Notes under the pieces: model-generated | The model's input: the letters and a program-made list of their open reading frames with translations, nothing else | The model's database searches: none | What the model was told of the DNA's origin: nothing | NCBI GenBank assembly: GCA_025839675.1 | Contig: CP104013.1 | Span: 4,200,001-4,232,000 of the forward strand | Source of the DNA: Candidatus Lokiarchaeum ossiferum | GTDB lineage: Archaea; Asgardarchaeota; Lokiarchaeia; Sigyniarchaeales; Promethearchaeaceae | DNA length: 32,000 nt | Direction of reading: 5' to 3' | Part shown: in pieces, positions 26,991 to 32,000 of the stretch | Layout: every line of letters begins with the position of its first letter | Position numbering within the stretch: the stretch's first letter is position 1 | Position numbers and translations under genes: made by a program

Positions 26991-28277
26991 TTACTTTCCA
27001 TAGTATAAAGTGGTCCAATTCACTAATCGAGACATAAATAGCATTCCATCCCAGGGAGAATCGAATAGATGCATTTGCCCTAAATTCACACAGCGGGATA
27101 CTCCTTTAAAAGTGGCTTCATCTGCAAAAGCAACCAATTTTTCTTTATCGCTAATGGCACACCCAATCGTCTGAATCTTTTTGGTAATTAGTGGTAAGGC
27201 TTCCATAACCGAATCCACTTCTTTGAGAAAGATAGTTCTCGACTCGACCGGATCCTCTAATTGAATATTTGAATTGATTAATATTGTCCAGTCATTTTCA
27301 ATAGGACAAATTACTTTTTTCTGAAGATCTAAAGCATATTGAGCTCGAATATTAATAATTTTGCTGGATATATACGGATCAGCATCGATTTTTGGAAATT
27401 GACGGGCGGCTCGTTTAAATGCATCTTGTAATTGAGAGACGAGTTCTTCAAAAGGAAGTGTTCCTCGCTCAAAAAAGACCACATGAGGAGAGGTACATGC
27501 TGCCTGATCAAATAAGAAAACATCACTTACCAGGAATCGAAGTTGACGTTTAAGCTGATCCGATGCTAACATGTCTTTATCAAAAACCGCGAAGGAATAC
27601 TTTGGTCCAAAGATAATATCTTCACAATGTGCATTTTTAGGAAGCCCCGTAATCGCTTTTACTGCTGAACCTCCTCCCCATACAATGCGAATGTCTGCAA
27701 TATCCGAAAATTCTTGATTTGCTTTGTGATTTACCCGATCATAATAGAGGATCCCAACTGATTTCAATAAATCATGACCACTCCAGCCCGATTCTGATTG
27801 TGTGTCGTTAAACACATCAAGAAGGGTAATCATGGTGGAATGACTTTTAGGGGGGATTCGCAAGAGATTTGCATTACCCACAAAAATTGATTGAAAAAGG
27901 GAGAATAATCCCAAAGTAGGAACATTACCGGCAATCCAGTGGCAAGCTAATCCACGGGGTTGAGCTTTCAAGCGCTTTTTTTCCCCAACAAAGTGGTCAA
28001 GATAATCCATAGTTTGGAAATTTTTGTTAACAATTTGAGAAAAGTTATTGCGTTTAAGCCAGCTGGATAAGAAGGCTACGCCTTCAACCTGATTCACTTT
28101 GGGTGATTTAATTAAATTCTTACTATATTCATGGAAAATGTCCAAAATTGCTACTTTTGGTATTGATTTGAGAATTCGAGCGCCTTCTTGAATTTGAGAG
28201 AGAAGGGGTCGAAGGGATTCCACAGATTTATATTGGGGATAGAAGATTTCCCCTCCGAATAACGCAATGTTAATCAT
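26991..28277 (-). CDS. LuxC-family acyl-CoA/acyl-protein reductase (aldehyde-forming)
   Basis: 428 aa. It has CHWIAGNVPTLG and the catalytic-Cys region FLFDQAACTSPHVVFF, as in LuxC-type members of the ALDH superfamily. Its ATG overlaps the stop of the upstream LuxE-like gene by 1 nt (TAATG). Confidence 0.75.
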   Translation of the reverse strand: MINIALFGGEIFYPQYKSVESLRPLLSQIQEGARILKSIPKVAILDIFHEYSKNLIKSPKVNQVEGVAFLSSWLKRNNFSQIVNKNFQTMDYLDHFVGEKKRLKAQPRGLACHWIAGNVPTLGLFSLFQSIFVGNANLLRIPPKSHSTMITLLDVFNDTQSESGWSGHDLLKSVGILYYDRVNHKANQEFSDIADIRIVWGGGSAVKAITGLPKNAHCEDIIFGPKYSFAVFDKDMLASDQLKRQLRFLVSDVFLFDQAACTSPHVVFFERGTLPFEELVSQLQDAFKRAARQFPKIDADPYISSKIINIRAQYALDLQKKVICPIENDWTILINSNIQLEDPVESRTIFLKEVDSVMEALPLITKKIQTIGCAISDKEKLVAFADEATFKGVSRCVNLGQMHLFDSPWDGMLFMSRLVNWTTLYYGK

Positions 28278-29398
28278 TATTTATCGCCTCGTTTTTCCGC
28301 GAAGGTATCGCCGCATCCACGGGTTTCAGTTTTTTCAACCCGGGATCGAAATTCGAAATATTTTCCCTTCCGACCGCATGGGCAATCATCAATTCCTATT
28401 AATTCACCCACATCTTCGGTAATAATCGCTTGACCGGGATAGCTACTTGGAATAATATTGAGAATTTCAATTAAACCGGGGGATCCGATGGGTTGTTCCT
28501 GCATGGTATAGATATCCCGAATAATTACTTCGGCAAAATCGGGGATATGTTTATGTCCCGCTTCGCAATCCAGAAACACCACCCCTAATTGTTCAACCAT
28601 TCCATAAAAATCAATGATATTTGCAGAGCTTGTCCCAAATATCTTCGCTACGGTTTGTGAAAATTGATCTTTAGTAACTGCTTGAGCAGTAAGTTTCTTC
28701 CACCCACCACTATGAACCAATTTCATATTCGGAAAATCGAGGGTTTTTTTTGCTTCTTGCATTTGTTGAATGAATCTACTCCAAACAATATAGGTAAAAC
28801 CAGAGACTAAAATTTCCTGACCCGCAAATTCGTCACAAAATTGCGTTAATCTCTCAACATTGATATAAAGTTCCCCTTCAATTTCATCCATCACATAAAC
28901 TTTTGTACGTCCAAAATTCCCTGCAATTCCTCTGATGGCCGCACCACGAGCCGTAAGGGTGGATGCTCCAGCCTTATTCACGTTTTCCGTATCTAAAATC
29001 AATACAGGGCGACGCTTTCCTCCTAAATAATTTTTGAGGGTTGCCATCAAACCTCGTGATTGGCGGAACGAAGTTTCTTTATTGATGTAGATCTTGCTGG
29101 GGGTGCTGGTCGTTGTTCCGCTAGAATGCATAGTTCGAATGATTTCTTCCACAGGACATGTTTTTAAATCAAAATGTTTGAACATAGACACAGGTAAGGG
29201 TGGAATATCTACGAGAGCGGTATAATGATCCGGCTGCTTTCCTAGGGAAGAATAAAACTTCTGTAATTCAGGAGAAACTTCCATGTTGTGGACGATTTGA
29301 GATCGAAGGATCTCCAAGAGGAGAGGTTCTTTCTCCTGGTGGGGGAGCTGGAATTGGACTTGAGCGATGAGTTCTTTTACTTGTGTTGAAGGATCCAT
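28277..29398 (-). CDS. LuxE-family acyl-protein synthetase (adenylate-forming)
   Basis: 373 aa. It has the P-loop-like HSSGTTTSTPSKIYI, VHSGGWKK, and a C-terminal CPCGRKGKYFEFRSRVEKTETRGCGD, as I recall for LuxE-like proteins. Confidence 0.75.
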   Translation of the reverse strand: MDPSTQVKELIAQVQFQLPHQEKEPLLLEILRSQIVHNMEVSPELQKFYSSLGKQPDHYTALVDIPPLPVSMFKHFDLKTCPVEEIIRTMHSSGTTTSTPSKIYINKETSFRQSRGLMATLKNYLGGKRRPVLILDTENVNKAGASTLTARGAAIRGIAGNFGRTKVYVMDEIEGELYINVERLTQFCDEFAGQEILVSGFTYIVWSRFIQQMQEAKKTLDFPNMKLVHSGGWKKLTAQAVTKDQFSQTVAKIFGTSSANIIDFYGMVEQLGVVFLDCEAGHKHIPDFAEVIIRDIYTMQEQPIGSPGLIEILNIIPSSYPGQAIITEDVGELIGIDDCPCGRKGKYFEFRSRVEKTETRGCGDTFAEKRGDK

Positions 29399-30459: not shown

Positions 30460-31976
30460 TCTGAAGATCCTCGGGTTTTTTTATCCATTTGTTTTAGTTT
30501 GACTTTATCTAATTTATTTGAATTGTTTTTTGGTAAGCTAGGGAGAAACTCATATTCTTTGGGAATTTTATGATTCGGGAAGTGAGCCTTGCAATAAGTT
30601 GTAATTTGATCTGCGTCGAGCTTCGTTTCGCCTTTTAAGGAAACATACGCTTTCATCGCTTCCCCCAAAATATCGTCTGGAATTCCGATGATCCCTACTT
30701 CAACGACTTCATCAAGTTGGGCAATATAATCTTCCACTTCTTTAGGGCTAACACGGAAACCTCCCACTTTAAGAATATTCTTTTCTCGATCAGTTAGGAA
30801 AATGAATCCTTCTTCATCAATCGTGCCTATGTCCCCTGTATATAACTTGCCATTTCTAAAGGATTTAGCGGTAGTTTCAGGATCTTGCCAATACCCTAAT
30901 GTAATATTTTCTCCGGATGCAACTAATTCTCCAATTTCTCCAGGTTTGATCGGTTGTCCATTTTTATTAACTACCGAGAGAGTGGTGTTTGGGATACCCT
31001 TTCCAATTGAACCGAGTTTTTTATCCAATAAACTTGGAGGAAGATATGATAACCGGGCTGTAGCTTCTGTTTGTCCATACATAATAAATATTTCTGTGGT
31101 AGGTAGCGCCTGGCGTAATTCTTGAATAAAGGCATTGGCTAATTTTCCTCCCGCTTGTTGCGCAATGCGTAGGGTTGGAAATTTCATTTGTTTTAATGCC
31201 GATCGCCTTAGTAAAATTTGATAGGTACTCGGAACTCCTGCAAATACGGTACACTCTTTTTGATTAATTTCCTTCAGCACTTTTCCGGGGAACATGAAAT
31301 GGTTATTCAATACCACCGATCCACCTACTCTCAAATGGGTGTGTAGCAATGATGTGCCAAAACAATAGGAAAAGGGAAGAACTGCCATTACCCGATCGGA
31401 TTCTTGTAATCCTAAGTATTCAATAATAGAATTCGAATTTACCATGATATTTTGGTGGGTTTGCATAACCCCCTTCGGTGTGCCGGTAGATCCGGATGTA
31501 AAAATAAGGATCGCAAGCCGCTGTTTTGGATTATTTATCGGGTATATTGTTCCTTCTGTGGTAGTTAGAGTGAAAATATTTTCATATCCTTCCACATCTT
31601 GATCAGTTAAAATGAGTTCTAAGGGAAGATTGAATTTGGCAAGTTTTTTGATATATTTCTTTTGCAAGAAGAAACATTTAATATTACAGCTTTCAATGAC
31701 GTATTTAAAATTACTTTCTCCAAATTGATGATGGATCGGAACGGCAACCCGCCCACTTCCTATGATTGCAAGATATGAAATAATGAAGAAAGGTGAGTTG
31801 TCCGCCACAATCATTATTTTTGCTTCAGGTTCTAAGGATAAATTATCTATTTTGGAGATCAATTTTAGTACATGTGAATTTAATTCAGAAAAGGATAGGG
31901 TGTTTTCACCCTGAAAAATAGCCGTTTTTGTTTCTAACCGTTGTGCTTGTTCTAATATGTAGTGTGTGAGGTTCAT
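30456..31976 (-). CDS. AMP-dependent synthetase/ligase (acyl-CoA or acyl-carrier-protein ligase, DltA-like size)
   Basis: 506 aa. It has the A3 motif FTSGSTGTPKGVM, A5 YGQTE, A7 YTGDIG, A8 KNILKVGGFRVSPKEVE and a C-terminal NKLDKVKL. Its stop overlaps the ADH start by 4 nt. Confidence 0.9.
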   Translation of the reverse strand: MNLTHYILEQAQRLETKTAIFQGENTLSFSELNSHVLKLISKIDNLSLEPEAKIMIVADNSPFFIISYLAIIGSGRVAVPIHHQFGESNFKYVIESCNIKCFFLQKKYIKKLAKFNLPLELILTDQDVEGYENIFTLTTTEGTIYPINNPKQRLAILIFTSGSTGTPKGVMQTHQNIMVNSNSIIEYLGLQESDRVMAVLPFSYCFGTSLLHTHLRVGGSVVLNNHFMFPGKVLKEINQKECTVFAGVPSTYQILLRRSALKQMKFPTLRIAQQAGGKLANAFIQELRQALPTTEIFIMYGQTEATARLSYLPPSLLDKKLGSIGKGIPNTTLSVVNKNGQPIKPGEIGELVASGENITLGYWQDPETTAKSFRNGKLYTGDIGTIDEEGFIFLTDREKNILKVGGFRVSPKEVEDYIAQLDEVVEVGIIGIPDDILGEAMKAYVSLKGETKLDADQITTYCKAHFPNHKIPKEYEFLPSLPKNNSNKLDKVKLKQMDKKTRGSSE

Positions 31977-32000
31977 ATTTCAATACCATGGTTTTTAAGA

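What the first reader, a model, noticed from the sequence alone, without database searches (positions are those of the whole stretch)
26991..32000. Carrier-protein-type acyl activation/reduction cassette (AMP-ligase, Fe-ADH, LuxE-like, LuxC-like) in an archaeal-looking genome, with the carrier protein predicted just off the right edge
Four minus-strand genes are translationally coupled, with overlaps of 4 nt, 22 nt and 1 nt. They are an adenylate-forming ligase (FTSGSTGTPKGVM, YGQTE), a group III Fe-ADH (GGGSTLDPAK), a LuxE-family acyl-protein synthetase (SSGTTTSTPSKIY...RGCGD) and a LuxC-family reductase (DQAACTSPH).

There is no luxAB, so this is not a bioluminescence operon. The 5'-to-3' order matches what I recall of the Vibrio cholerae O1 rfb genes rfbK (ACP), rfbL (AMP-ligase), rfbM (Fe-ADH) and rfbN (LuxE/LuxC-like). 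Those genes were proposed to make the 3-deoxy-L-glycero-tetronate N-acyl group of perosamine. Under that model an ACP gene should lie immediately beyond position 32000.

The neighbourhood supports a carrier-protein pathway. A phosphopantetheinyl transferase sits at 25223..26041. A DegT-family sugar aminotransferase, the family of perosamine synthase, sits at 22379..23521.

The alternative reading is a LuxCDE-like route from fatty acid to aldehyde to alcohol, with the hydrolase at 26048..26989 in the LuxD role. That would be remarkable next to an isoprenoid ether-lipid cluster. Either way, ACP-dependent acyl chemistry is not part of canonical archaeal metabolism, and I know of no characterised archaeal version.
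Basis: partly seen in the sequence, partly recalled or inferred. Interest (0 to 1): 0.78.

Follow-up and report, generated by a model that had tools for sequence, protein, structure and literature searches.

The report
Carrier-protein acyl-reduction cassette in Lokiarchaeum
An Asgard archaeon (Lokiarchaeum ossiferum) carries a complete, vertically inherited set of genes that load a small acid onto an acyl carrier protein, reduce it and probably hang it on an amino sugar of a surface glycan, which matters because carrier-protein chemistry is almost unknown in archaea, although the same cassette is common in bacterial glycan loci.

Summary
Four translationally coupled minus-strand genes encode an AMP-ligase, an Fe-alcohol dehydrogenase, a LuxE-family and a LuxC-family protein, with catalytic residues intact.

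The predicted carrier protein exists. Its last 8 codons lie at 31973-32000. Identical contigs and the closed Ca. Lokiarchaeum ossiferum genome show a 79-aa ACP overlapping the ligase start by 4 nt. Upstream of it lie a MaoC hydratase and a hexapeptide acyltransferase, then DUF354 and a GT4 transferase.

The core cassette is conserved in order across at least seven Asgard lineages. They form a clade in LuxE and ligase trees. A hexapeptide transferase and an Sfp-type PPTase usually lie nearby. The gene order matches V. cholerae O1 wbeK-L-M-N (tetronate branch).

Best reading: half-reduction of a short, probably C4, dicarboxylate on or for ACP gives a hydroxyacyl-ACP, which N-acylates an amino sugar. 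The product is inferred, not shown.

The LuxCDE fatty-aldehyde reading is not supported. Contamination is excluded.

It is a new archaeal variant of a known but biochemically uncharacterised bacterial cassette. Interest is moderate.

The parts
31973..32000 (-). 3' end (last 8 codons plus stop, LKNHGIEI*) of the 79-aa acyl carrier protein gene. The rest lies beyond the window edge.
   Evidence: L001 and L002 are identical to the window over the overlap. PF00550 scores 4.3e-6. The attachment Ser in W[D/T/S]S..H is invariant in 70/70 loci.
30456..31976 (-). Adenylate-forming ligase (506 aa), presumed to load the acid onto the ACP.
   Evidence: PF00501 5.7e-71 and PF13193. The best NCBIfam model is the exosortase-A-associated acyl-CoA ligase TIGR03098, below its cut-off. 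It overlaps the ACP stop by 4 nt.
29377..30459 (-). Group III iron-containing alcohol dehydrogenase (360 aa), presumed aldehyde-to-alcohol step.
   Evidence: PF00465 and PF25137. The GGGS motif and the metal-binding Asp/His residues are visible in the translation. Present in 10/10 Asgard loci.
28277..29398 (-). LuxE-family acyl-protein synthetase (373 aa).
   Evidence: PF04443 9.4e-52. It aligns to 7xc6_E, with the C-terminal ..TRGCGD Cys matching Cys364 of the TRxxKGCxLS motif and the GGWK Lys conserved. It is far below the LuxE equivalog cut-off (69 vs 550 bits).
26991..28277 (-). LuxC-family acyl-thioester reductase (428 aa).
   Evidence: PF05893 3.8e-71. It aligns to 7xc6_A at 5e-20, with the catalytic Cys conserved (DQAAC vs DQQAC). 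It is about 50 aa shorter than luminescence LuxC and lacks the C-terminal exit residues. It is below the LuxC equivalog cut-off (105 vs 750 bits).
26048..26989 (+). Alpha/beta hydrolase (313 aa), convergent on LuxC. Role unknown; ACP thioesterase or editing is a guess.
   Evidence: PF00561 3.9e-18 with no LuxD family hit. Conserved beside LuxC in MK-D1 at 52% identity. An ABH also lies next to the PPTase in Thor L086.
25223..26041 (+). Sfp-type 4'-phosphopantetheinyl transferase (272 aa), presumed to convert apo-ACP to holo-ACP.
   Evidence: Found within 1 to 3 genes of the cassette in Loki, MK-D1, Hermod, Sigyn, Hel and Thor loci.
24459..25202 (+). Unknown 247-aa protein, co-directional with the PPTase and hydrolase. 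Membership in the pathway is uncertain.
   Evidence: No Pfam or NCBIfam hit. A 52% orthologue sits in the MK-D1 cluster. The AlphaFold model has pLDDT 48 and is unusable.
23514..24455 (-). Alpha/beta hydrolase (313 aa) with a hydrophobic N-terminal stretch that looks like a membrane anchor, and a weak thioesterase-family hit.
   Evidence: PF12697 9e-11; PF00975 6.5e-5, below cut-off. The hydrophobic N-terminus is read from the translation and was not tested with a predictor.
22379..23521 (+). DegT/DnrJ/EryC1-family PLP aminotransferase (380 aa), presumed to make the amino-sugar acceptor.
   Evidence: PF01041 1.2e-114. The best solved relatives are scyllo-inositol transaminase and perosamine synthetases. 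Conserved beside HMG-CoA synthase in MK-D1.

Best explanation
This is the distal two-thirds of a seven-gene operon of Ca. Lokiarchaeum ossiferum: hexapeptide acyltransferase, MaoC hydratase, ACP, AMP-ligase, Fe-ADH, LuxE-like and LuxC-like. A convergent operon encodes a dedicated Sfp-type PPTase and an alpha/beta hydrolase.

Proposed mechanism (inferred):
1. The PPTase converts apo-ACP to holo-ACP.
2. The AMP-ligase thioesterifies one carboxyl of a short dicarboxylic acid onto the ACP. The acid is most likely a C4 acid such as fumarate, malate or succinate.
3. The MaoC hydratase, which has a complete hydratase-2 motif, hydrates a 2-enoyl intermediate.
4. The LuxE-like enzyme adenylates the second, free carboxyl and passes it through its C-terminal Cys to the active-site Cys of the LuxC-like reductase. 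LuxC releases an aldehyde using NAD(P)H.
5. The Fe-ADH reduces the aldehyde to a primary alcohol.
6. The hexapeptide (LbH) acyltransferase transfers the resulting hydroxyacyl group from ACP to the amine of an amino sugar. That amine is made by the DegT aminotransferase here, and possibly by a PIG-L deacetylase in Thorarchaeota.
7. The sugar enters a polyprenyl-phosphate-linked surface glycan through the adjacent GT4 and DUF354 enzymes.

The reduction may equally occur on the free acid before loading, which is how PMC12208996 describes RfbL (it loads already-made 2,4-dihydroxybutanoate).

Shown here: gene content, order, family membership, conserved catalytic residues, and conservation across Asgard archaea. 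Inferred: substrate, order of steps, acceptor and cellular destination.
For: Family assignments and catalytic residues. ACP, MaoC and the hexapeptide transferase lie beyond the window edge.

Two separate adenylating enzymes plus a carrier protein plus a transferase only make sense if the substrate has two carboxyls, or is activated twice. This is inference.

The hexapeptide protein's best solved relatives are nucleotide-sugar N-acetyltransferases (QdtC, 7s43, WlbB). Its best NCBIfam model is NeuD/PglB/VioB.

A hexapeptide gene lies within a few genes of the cassette in L. ossiferum, MK-D1, Sigyn, Zod, Hel, Thor, Woesearchaeota, Micrarchaeota, a CPR bacterium and Gammaproteobacteria.

Glycan context: DegT, GT4, DUF354 and a cis-prenyltransferase in Loki and MK-D1; PIG-L, a nucleotidyltransferase and Glyphos_transf in Thor.

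The known homologous cassettes sit in glycan loci:
- V. cholerae O1 wbeK-L-M-N. These genes are predicted to make the 2,4-dihydroxybutyryl (tetronate) N-acyl group of perosamine, and mutants lose O antigen or O1-dependent phage sensitivity (PMC12208996, PMC9915646, PMC3441752).
- Flagellin glycosylation islands of Aeromonas and Enterobacteriaceae.

The C4 hint: in about 33 of 38 Clostridium loci, the nearest bacterial relatives, the cassette is followed by a sigma-54 activator, a bona fide 4-hydroxybutyryl-CoA dehydratase (1u8v, 2e-243), a NifU-like protein and a CoA-transferase.

This LuxC-like protein lacks the C-terminal residues that line the distal part of the long hydrophobic cleft of luminescence LuxC. 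It also has Thr where LuxC has Phe297.
Against: - No enzyme was assayed, and the product is unknown, even for V. cholerae.
- No NDP-sugar 4,6-dehydratase or nucleotidyltransferase lies within the window or the 10 kb beyond it. The amino-sugar branch is therefore incomplete locally.
- The Helarchaeota locus has no glycosyltransferase nearby.
- Clostridium relatives have no hexapeptide transferase (0/38) and sit next to fermentation genes. The clade's ancestral role may therefore not be glycan decoration.
- The ligase's closest solved and curated relatives are chemically heterogeneous, including fatty-acyl, feruloyl, oxalyl and malonyl ligases. They say nothing firm about chain length.
- Known sugar LbH N-acyltransferases of the QdtC/PglD type use acyl-CoA, not acyl-ACP.
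Confidence: 0.6

Rival explanations
1. A LuxCDE-like fatty-acid reductase route. A fatty acid is activated and reduced to a fatty aldehyde and then an alcohol for a lipid (ether, wax or plasmalogen-like). The adjacent alpha/beta hydrolase would release acyl groups as LuxD does.
For: The LuxC and LuxE families match with conserved catalytic Cys residues. An Fe-ADH could make the alcohol. Two alpha/beta hydrolases are adjacent. Mevalonate and prenyl genes are next door.
Against: - Both proteins are far below the luminescence equivalog cut-offs (105 vs 750 bits and 69 vs 550 bits).
- Neither hydrolase hits the LuxD family.
- A second adenylating enzyme, an ACP and a hexapeptide transferase would all be superfluous.
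- No luxAB is present.
- The LuxC-like protein lacks the distal cleft residues of the myristoyl-binding LuxC.
- Adjacency to the mevalonate genes holds only in Loki and MK-D1, not in Thor or Hel.
Confidence: 0.08
2. A catabolic or fermentative module, as its Clostridium relatives may be. It would carry out ATP-driven reduction of a C4 acid to a 4-hydroxy acid that feeds central metabolism (a 4-hydroxybutyrate / crotonyl-CoA type pathway), not a cell-surface decoration.
For: The closest bacterial homologues are in about 38 Clostridium species. About 33 of those loci place the cassette directly upstream of a sigma-54 activator, 4-hydroxybutyryl-CoA dehydratase and a CoA-transferase. The Helarchaeota locus lacks glycosyltransferases.
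Against: - Asgard loci have no AbfD or CoA-transferase neighbours.
- Asgard loci do carry a hexapeptide acyltransferase and a PPTase, plus DegT, GT4, DUF354 or PIG-L.
- A carrier-protein-bound intermediate and an acyltransferase point to delivery of the acyl group to an acceptor.
Confidence: 0.12
3. A carrier-protein pathway whose acyl group ends up on something other than a sugar. The acceptor could be a small amine, a lipid head group or a protein, and the acyl group could be a small specialised metabolite. The glycan genes would be neighbours by coincidence.
For: The core ACP-ligase-LuxE-LuxC occurs in very varied contexts. DegT enzymes also aminate non-sugar ketones; the best PDB hit is a scyllo-inositol transaminase. 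LbH transferases acylate many kinds of acceptor.
Against: The same glycan-type neighbours recur after rearrangement in Loki and MK-D1. Independent glycan-type neighbours occur in Thor. Every bacterial context described in the literature is a glycan locus.
Confidence: 0.15
4. Bacterial contamination, a chimeric contig end, or a recent strain-specific horizontal acquisition with no role in archaeal biology.
For: The four cassette genes have higher GC (0.385) and GC3 (0.317) than the other 25 genes of the window (0.329 +/- 0.020 and 0.248 +/- 0.027).
Against: - The identical arrangement sits inside a closed 6.27-Mb L. ossiferum chromosome and in the complete MK-D1 chromosome.
- The cassette is present in Loki, Sigyn, Hermod, Thor, Hel, Hod, Sif and Heimdall assemblies.
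- Asgard sequences form a clade whose internal branching follows the lineages. NJ bootstrap is 78 for LuxE and 88 for the ligase.
- The nearest bacterial identity is only about 42%.
Confidence: 0.01

Closest known systems
Vibrio cholerae O1 wbe/rfb K-L-M-N(-O) genes (tetronate = 2,4-dihydroxybutyryl branch of O1 antigen synthesis)
   Same: The order and content match: carrier protein, AMP-ligase, Fe-ADH, then LuxE/LuxC-type activities. A hexapeptide-type acyltransferase and a DegT-family aminotransferase are also in the locus. Both are proposed to give a hydroxylated short acyl group amide-linked to an amino sugar (PMC12208996, PMC9915646, PMC3441752).
   Different: - LuxE and LuxC are separate genes here but fused in WbeN (2478 nt).
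- The Asgard version adds a MaoC hydratase, a dedicated Sfp-type PPTase and alpha/beta hydrolases.
- No GDP-mannose/perosamine genes are nearby.
- In my trees the Asgard genes fall in a different deep clade from the gammaproteobacterial MAG loci that share the wbe-like order.
- V. cholerae sequences themselves were not available for comparison.
- The assignments of RfbO and of malate as precursor rest on my recollection of Morona et al. 1995.
LuxC-LuxE(-LuxD) fatty acid reductase complex of luminous bacteria (PDB 7xc6)
   Same: Homologous folds and chemistry: adenylation, acyl-Cys on a flexible C-terminal tail of LuxE, transfer to the LuxC Cys, then NADPH reduction to an aldehyde. The Cys, Lys and Arg positions are conserved.
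   Different: - E-values to the solved LuxC and LuxE chains are only 5e-20 and 8e-17, and both proteins are far below the NCBIfam equivalog cut-offs.
- No luxAB or luxD is present.
- The protein is about 50 aa shorter, without the distal cleft residues.
- It is coupled to an ACP, a second ligase, an ADH and an acyltransferase.
ACP / FabG / AMP-ligase / LuxE / LuxC block of flagellin glycosylation islands (Aeromonas group II; Enterobacteriaceae)
   Same: The same ACP-ligase-LuxE-LuxC core sits in a protein-glycosylation locus next to amino-sugar (pse) genes. The function is uncharacterised (PMC7874193, PMC4875605).
   Different: The bacterial block uses an SDR (FabG) rather than an Fe-ADH. No MaoC or PPTase is reported. 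The hosts are bacteria.
Clostridium ACP-ligase-LuxE-LuxC(-MaoC) loci
   Same: These are the closest bacterial sequence relatives: 39-43% identity for LuxC, about 50-55% for LuxE and the ligase. They have the same gene order and often a MaoC.
   Different: They have no Fe-ADH inside the block, no hexapeptide transferase and no PPTase. The block is followed by a sigma-54 activator, 4-hydroxybutyryl-CoA dehydratase and a CoA-transferase.
Acyl-ACP-dependent LbH acyltransferases LpxA/LpxD, and the DltA/DltC carrier-protein decoration system
   Same: Both show the same logic: a carrier-protein-bound acyl group is delivered to a cell-envelope sugar or polymer. LpxD was the third-best NCBIfam model for the hexapeptide protein.
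   Different: There is no orthology; scores are far below cut-offs. The best matches of the hexapeptide protein are acetyl-CoA-using sugar N-acetyltransferases.

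Membership tests
LuxC family (Pfam PF05893, acyl-thioester reductases) | Profile match above the gathering score over the whole domain | tested here: met
   240.5 bits against a cut-off of 21; profile positions 33-401 of 401.
LuxC family (Pfam PF05893, acyl-thioester reductases) | Catalytic cysteine that carries the acyl group | tested here: met
   DQAAC(261) aligns with DQQAC of P. phosphoreum LuxC (Cys296 in PMC9157457). The Cys is invariant in 18 homologues.
Luminescence LuxC/LuxE orthologues (lux operon) | Equivalog-level similarity to LuxC and LuxE | tested here: not met
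   NF052251 scores 104.9 against a cut-off of 750. NF052244 scores 69.3 against 550.
Luminescence LuxC/LuxE orthologues (lux operon) | luxA/luxB luciferase and luxD acyltransferase in the operon | tested here: not met
   No luciferase-family or LuxD-family hit among any window ORF of 90 aa or more, or among the called genes of L003.
LuxE family (Pfam PF04443, acyl-protein synthetases) | Profile match, plus the C-terminal flexible motif with the acylated Cys and the Lys/Arg adenylation pair | tested here: met
   176.6 bits against a cut-off of 24.9. TETRGCGD aligns with the TRxxKGC motif, and GGWK and the Arg upstream of the motif are conserved.
V. cholerae wbeK-L-M-N-O type glycan N-acyl cassette | Small carrier protein with a phosphopantetheine Ser directly upstream of an AMP-ligase | tested here: met
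   A 79-aa PP-binding protein overlaps the ligase start by 4 nt. The Ser of W[D/T/S]S..H is invariant in 70/70 loci.
V. cholerae wbeK-L-M-N-O type glycan N-acyl cassette | Fe-ADH followed by acyl-protein synthetase and acyl-CoA reductase activities | tested here: met
   The order is ligase, Fe-ADH, LuxE, LuxC. V. cholerae has VC0250 (Fe-ADH) and VC0251 (fused reductase/synthase). Here they are split rather than fused.
V. cholerae wbeK-L-M-N-O type glycan N-acyl cassette | Hexapeptide-type acyltransferase and a DegT-family amino-sugar synthase in the locus | tested here: met
   The hexapeptide gene is at L003 4912-5559, two genes upstream of the ACP. DegT is at window 22379-23521. That RfbO is a hexapeptide transferase is from memory.
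V. cholerae wbeK-L-M-N-O type glycan N-acyl cassette | GDP-mannose to GDP-perosamine genes (manC, manB, gmd) alongside | tested here: not met
   No NDP-sugar dehydratase or nucleotidyltransferase lies in the 32-kb window or the 10 kb beyond. The rest of the genome was not searched.
V. cholerae wbeK-L-M-N-O type glycan N-acyl cassette | Direct orthology to the V. cholerae proteins | not tested
   V. cholerae sequences could not be retrieved with these tools. Gammaproteobacterial MAG loci with a wbe-like order (L076, L084) fall in a different deep clade from the Asgard genes.
V. cholerae wbeK-L-M-N-O type glycan N-acyl cassette | Product is a hydroxyacyl group amide-linked to an amino sugar | not testable with these tools
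   This needs enzyme assays or glycan mass spectrometry and NMR.
Sfp-type 4'-phosphopantetheinyl transferases | Two-domain size of about 230-280 aa, the signature motifs (SHS, G-I-D..E, W/F..KE..K), and a profile match | tested here: met
   The protein is 272 aa and carries SISHS, IGIDCE and WSIKESTLKA. The profile of four Asgard orthologues hits AASDHPPT 2cg5 and Sfp 1qr0 at 4.7e-6. The single-sequence Pfam score is just below cut-off (24.3 vs 25).
MaoC / hydratase-2 (R)-specific enoyl-thioester hydratases | Pfam match and the hydratase-2 motif [YF]-x(1,2)-[LVIG]-[STGC]-G-D-x-N-P-[LIV]-H-x(5)-[AS] | tested here: met
   PF01575 scores 1.6e-20. The sequence FMNLSGDRNPIHHDIEFA in the translation fits the motif, which is quoted from memory.

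The most novel reading that the evidence does not exclude
Asgard archaea have vertically inherited an ACP- and PPTase-dependent pathway that attaches acyl chains to a membrane-anchored amino-sugar glycoconjugate.

The logic would resemble lipid A assembly:
- an amine is exposed by an aminotransferase or a PIG-L deacetylase;
- an acyl-ACP-using LbH transferase acylates it;
- a GT-B DUF354 enzyme and a GT4 polyprenyl-phosphate transferase build the conjugate.

This would be a genuine carrier-protein-built acyl-glycolipid or liposugar in the archaeal lineage closest to eukaryotes, and relevant to how acyl chemistry entered that lineage.
Probability: 0.08. Interest if true: 0.85.

Novelty: new variant of a known kind. 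Interest (0 to 1): 0.5.

Why it matters
ACP and its synthase are reported to be absent from nearly all archaea (bioRxiv 10.1101/2024.07.05.601840). Here a complete carrier-protein system is conserved in gene order across most Asgard lineages. It comprises an ACP, a dedicated Sfp-type PPTase, a loading ligase, tailoring enzymes and a transferase. It is present in both cultured representatives, MK-D1 and L. ossiferum, so it can be tested directly by glycan or lipid mass spectrometry and by in vitro reconstitution.

It most likely defines an unusual N-acyl decoration of an Asgard surface glycan. The surface of these cells mediates the syntrophic contacts that are central to eukaryogenesis models.

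It also offers a tractable, soluble, split-gene version of the widespread ACP-ligase-LuxE-LuxC cassette. The biochemistry of that cassette has never been demonstrated, including the V. cholerae O1 tetronate branch and the flagellin glycosylation islands.

Tempering this: every component belongs to a well-known family, the genes are already generically annotated in GenBank, and the cassette is common in bacteria.

Tried and rejected
- **LuxD role for the hydrolases.** Neither the hydrolase at 26048-26989 nor the one at 23514-24455 hits the LuxD family. I rejected the LuxD reading.
- **Substrate from the ligase.** Curated families and solved structures gave a chemically heterogeneous list. This was uninformative.
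- **Literature linking LuxC, ACP or PPTase to Asgard or Lokiarchaeota.** Three searches found nothing.
- **Literature on DUF354.** The search returned only unrelated DUF354x families.
- **Structure of the unknown 247-aa protein.** The single-sequence model had pLDDT 48, so I did not run a fold search.
- **Plasmid collection search with LuxC.** It found only distant hits of 23-26% identity annotated 'acyl-CoA reductase'.
- **Direct comparison with V. cholerae WbeK-O.** No route to those sequences existed, so I used the literature instead.
- **Elevated GC of the cassette as a sign of recent transfer.** The elevation is real at about 2.5 SD. The Asgard-wide clade and conserved order outweigh it, so it remains unexplained.
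- **Adjacency to the mevalonate genes as functional linkage.** It holds in Loki and MK-D1 only, not in Thor or Hel. I treat it as weak evidence at best; dolichol-type carrier supply is one possibility.

Full report
**Observation**

| Gene | Coordinates | Length |
|---|---|---|
| Ligase | 30456-31976 | 506 aa |
| Fe-ADH | 29377-30459 | 360 aa |
| LuxE-like | 28277-29398 | 373 aa |
| LuxC-like | 26991-28277 | 428 aa |

The overlaps are 4, 22 and 1 nt, and all quoted motifs are present. Pfam assigns them to AMP-binding (+C), Fe-ADH (+ADH_Fe_C), LuxE (9.4e-52) and LuxC (3.8e-71), far above the curated cut-offs. NCBIfam shows they are not orthologues of the luminescence enzymes: 105 bits against a cut-off of 750 for LuxC, and 69 against 550 for LuxE.

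Against the solved P. phosphoreum LuxC-LuxE complex (7xc6), the acyl-accepting Cys of LuxC aligns (DQAAC vs DQQAC). So do the C-terminal TRxxKGC Cys, the GGWK Lys and the upstream Arg of LuxE.

**The carrier protein**

A look-up of the ligase by exact sequence returned two contigs (L001, L002). They are 100% identical to the window over the overlap and run past position 32000. They encode three further genes:
- a 79-aa PP-binding protein (Pfam 4.3e-6) whose TGA overlaps the ligase ATG;
- upstream of that, a 136-aa MaoC hydratase;
- upstream again, a hexapeptide-repeat acyltransferase.

The last 8 codons of the ACP (LKNHGIEI*) are already in the window at 31973-32000. The attachment serine in W[D/T/S]S..H is invariant in 70 of 70 homologous loci. 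The Loki/Sigyn group has T/S-S instead of the usual D-S.

**Organism and authenticity**

The LuxC-like protein is 99% identical to that of Ca. Lokiarchaeum ossiferum, on a closed 6.27-Mb chromosome. The chromosomal locus (L003) has the same genes at 98-100% protein identity. The rest of the window is archaeal: a RadA-type recombinase, Trm1, and a mevalonate pathway with isopentenyl-phosphate kinase. Mis-binning or chimerism is therefore excluded.

**Extended anatomy**

In L. ossiferum the gene order is as follows:
1. GT4 (polyprenyl-phosphate sugar-phosphate transferase family).
2. DUF354, on the opposite strand.
3. The operon hexapeptide - MaoC - ACP - ligase - Fe-ADH - LuxE - LuxC.
4. Convergent on it, alpha/beta hydrolase - PPTase - unknown 247 aa.
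5. A second alpha/beta hydrolase with a hydrophobic N-terminus, then DegT, then HMG-CoA synthase and the mevalonate genes.

The PPTase call is secure at family level. It carries the SISHS, IGIDCE and WSIKESTLKA motifs. A profile of four Asgard orthologues hits human AASDHPPT and Sfp at 5e-6.

In Promethearchaeum syntrophicum MK-D1 the same genes are all present but shuffled into a different arrangement: GT4, ACP to LuxC, hydrolase, PPTase, DUF354, hexapeptide, MaoC, the 247-aa protein, DegT and HMGS. Only the second hydrolase was not detected there. Persistence of a gene set through rearrangement is evidence of functional linkage.

**Distribution**

A scan of one genome per species, using a LuxC alignment, returned 80 loci. 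A tblastn survey with the cluster's proteins gave the following picture.
- ACP-ligase-LuxE-LuxC is nearly universal.
- MaoC-ACP-ligase-Fe-ADH-LuxE-LuxC is conserved in order in Promethearchaeota/Loki, Sigyn, Hermod, Thor and Hel. It is rearranged in a Heimdall MAG and also present in a Woesearchaeote.
- Named hits further include Hodarchaeota and Sifarchaeia.
- The Fe-ADH is in 10/10 Asgard loci.
- A PPTase and a hexapeptide transferase were each detected in 6/10 by tblastn. Gene calls show both in the Thor locus L086 as well and in the Hel locus L087.

Neighbour-joining trees place the Loki/Sigyn/Hermod/Thor/Hel sequences in one clade. Bootstrap is 78 for LuxE and 88 for the ligase, and weak for LuxC, where the Heimdall and Woesearchaeote sequences intrude. 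The internal branching follows the lineages.

The nearest bacteria are about 38 Clostridium species at 39-43% LuxC identity. A second deep clade holds Gammaproteobacteria, Bacteroidales, CPR bacteria and Micrarchaeota. This pattern indicates long vertical inheritance within Asgard archaea.

The four cassette genes do have higher GC (0.385) and GC3 (0.317) than the other 25 genes of the window (0.329 and 0.248, about 2.5 SD). I cannot explain this.

**Comparison with what is known**

- wbeM (VC0250) is an Fe-ADH.
[quoted passage not shown] Mutations in wbeM and wbeN confer resistance to phages that require the O1 antigen (PMC9915646).
- wbeL is required for O1 antigen (PMC3441752).

The ACP-ligase-LuxE-LuxC core also occurs, uncharacterised, in flagellin glycosylation islands of Aeromonas and Enterobacteriaceae. 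Gammaproteobacterial MAG loci L076 and L084 show ACP, ligase, Fe-ADH, LuxE, LuxC and hexapeptide, with DegT following in L084.

I found no paper connecting these genes with Asgard archaea. [quoted passage not shown]

**Mechanism**

Shown here:
- Family membership.
- Intact catalytic residues. These include a complete hydratase-2 motif in MaoC (FMNLSGDRNPIHHDIEFA) and the GGGS/metal ligands of the Fe-ADH.
- Translational coupling.
- Conserved association with a PPTase and an LbH acyltransferase.

Inferred:

1. *The substrate is a dicarboxylate, or is activated twice.* A pathway with two adenylating enzymes, a carrier protein and a transferase is most simply explained this way. One carboxyl becomes the ACP thioester and is finally transferred. 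The other is reduced by LuxE/LuxC to an aldehyde and by the Fe-ADH to an alcohol. With a monocarboxylic fatty acid, reduction would release the chain and leave the ACP and the transferase with no role.

2. *The chain is probably C4.* Two independent observations point this way. The V. cholerae product is 2,4-dihydroxybutyrate. And in about 33 of 38 Clostridium loci the cassette is followed by a sigma-54 activator, an authentic 4-hydroxybutyryl-CoA dehydratase (1u8v, 2e-243), a NifU-like protein and a CoA-transferase. With MaoC, fumaryl-ACP to malyl-ACP to 3,4-dihydroxybutyryl-ACP is one concrete possibility. It is a guess.

3. *The acceptor is probably an amino sugar.*
   - The hexapeptide protein's best solved relatives are nucleotide-sugar N-acetyltransferases (QdtC, WlbB).
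   - DegT's best solved relatives include perosamine synthetases.
   - Thor loci carry a PIG-L deacetylase instead of DegT.
   - GT4, DUF354, a cis-prenyltransferase (13388-14149) and a UbiA enzyme most like decaprenyl-phosphate phosphoribosyltransferase (9821-10759) are nearby.

4. *The LuxC-like protein may bind a shorter chain than luminescence LuxC.* It ends about 35 residues before the LuxC C-terminus, which contributes the distal part of the 40-angstrom hydrophobic cleft. It also has Thr in place of Phe297. This is consistent with a short substrate but is not proof.

**Weaknesses**

- Nothing has been assayed.
- No sugar 4,6-dehydratase is nearby.
- The Hel locus lacks glycosyltransferases.
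- Clostridium relatives lack a hexapeptide transferase and look catabolic.
- Sugar LbH N-acyltransferases of this type normally use acyl-CoA.

I therefore put 0.6 on the glycan N-hydroxyacyl reading and smaller weights on the rivals:

| Reading | Weight |
|---|---|
| Glycan N-hydroxyacyl decoration | 0.6 |
| Non-sugar acceptor | 0.15 |
| Clostridium-like catabolic role | 0.12 |
| LuxCDE-like fatty aldehyde/alcohol route | 0.08 |
| Artefact | 0.01 |

**Verdict**

The thing itself is an archaeal, MaoC- and PPTase-equipped, split-gene variant of a cassette that is widespread in bacterial glycan loci but has never been characterised biochemically.

It is noteworthy because it is a conserved, vertically inherited ACP system in Asgard archaea, and because two cultured hosts make it testable. 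It is not categorically new.

Noticed in passing
L085 11976-17159 and the equivalent positions in about 33 of 38 Clostridium loci (L014-L052, L072, L074): In Clostridium the ACP-ligase-LuxE-LuxC(-MaoC) block is almost always followed by a sigma-54 activator, a bona fide 4-hydroxybutyryl-CoA dehydratase (1u8v, 2e-243), a NifU-like protein and a butyryl/4-hydroxybutyrate-type CoA-transferase. This conserved and apparently undescribed synteny suggests the cassette handles C4 acids there.
   Followed up: partly
window 26991-31976 versus the rest of the window: The four cassette genes have GC 0.385 and GC3 0.317, against 0.329 +/- 0.020 and 0.248 +/- 0.027 for the other 25 genes. Between L. ossiferum and MK-D1, the hexapeptide (91%), DUF354 (86%) and ACP (81%) proteins are much more conserved than HMG-CoA synthase (58%) or GT4 (52%). 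I have no explanation. Strong constraint, high expression, or exchange among Lokiarchaeia are all possible.
   Followed up: partly
window 20433-22136 (-): The HMG-CoA synthase is 567 aa. It has a C-terminal extension of about 140 aa beyond the Pfam domains, containing a Cys/His cluster (CDEGC...CPKGH). MK-D1 has the same long form (564 aa). Archaeal HMGS normally partners with a separate DUF35 zinc-ribbon protein, so this may be a fusion.
   Followed up: no
window 9821-10759 (-) and 13388-14149 (+): A UbiA-family enzyme is best matched by decaprenyl-phosphate phosphoribosyltransferase (170 bits, below the cut-off of 234). A cis-prenyltransferase (UppS family) sits beside the mevalonate genes. 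The 'isoprenoid ether-lipid cluster' therefore looks at least partly like polyprenyl-phosphate glycan-carrier supply.
   Followed up: partly
window 24459-25202 (+): This 247-aa protein has no family hit. It is co-operonic with the PPTase and conserved at 52% in the MK-D1 cluster. The predicted secondary structure of the N-terminal half is alpha-beta-beta-alpha-beta-beta-beta-alpha, but the model confidence is too low (pLDDT 48) to name a fold.
   Followed up: partly
window 23514-24459 and 26989-26991: Gene packing is extreme. DegT and the hydrolase at 23514-24455 overlap tail-to-tail by 8 nt. The divergent start codons at 24455 and 24459 are 3 nt apart. The convergent stops of the hydrolase (26989) and LuxC (26991) are adjacent, so there is no room for intergenic promoters or terminators.
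   Followed up: no
ACP motif, L001-L009 versus all other loci: The residue before the phosphopantetheine serine is Thr or Ser in the Loki/Prometheo/Sigyn group (WTS, WSS), instead of the Asp found in 62 of 70 loci (WDS). These same genomes carry a very divergent PPTase, with only 19-32% identity among Asgard orthologues.
   Followed up: no
L086 2923-3576, 11254-12231 and 17349-19204 (Thorarchaeota): The Thor version of the locus has a PIG-L family de-N-acetylase, a longer (325-aa) hexapeptide protein directly after LuxC, and two Methyltransf_21 proteins. One of these weakly hits the V. cholerae RfbT family.
   Followed up: no
window 1463-2434 (-), 6958-7995 (+) and 10764-13337 (-): Other genes in the window: a Rad51/RadA-family ATPase (323 aa), a leucine-rich-repeat protein (345 aa), and an unusually long (857-aa) M48-peptidase-domain protein.
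   Followed up: no
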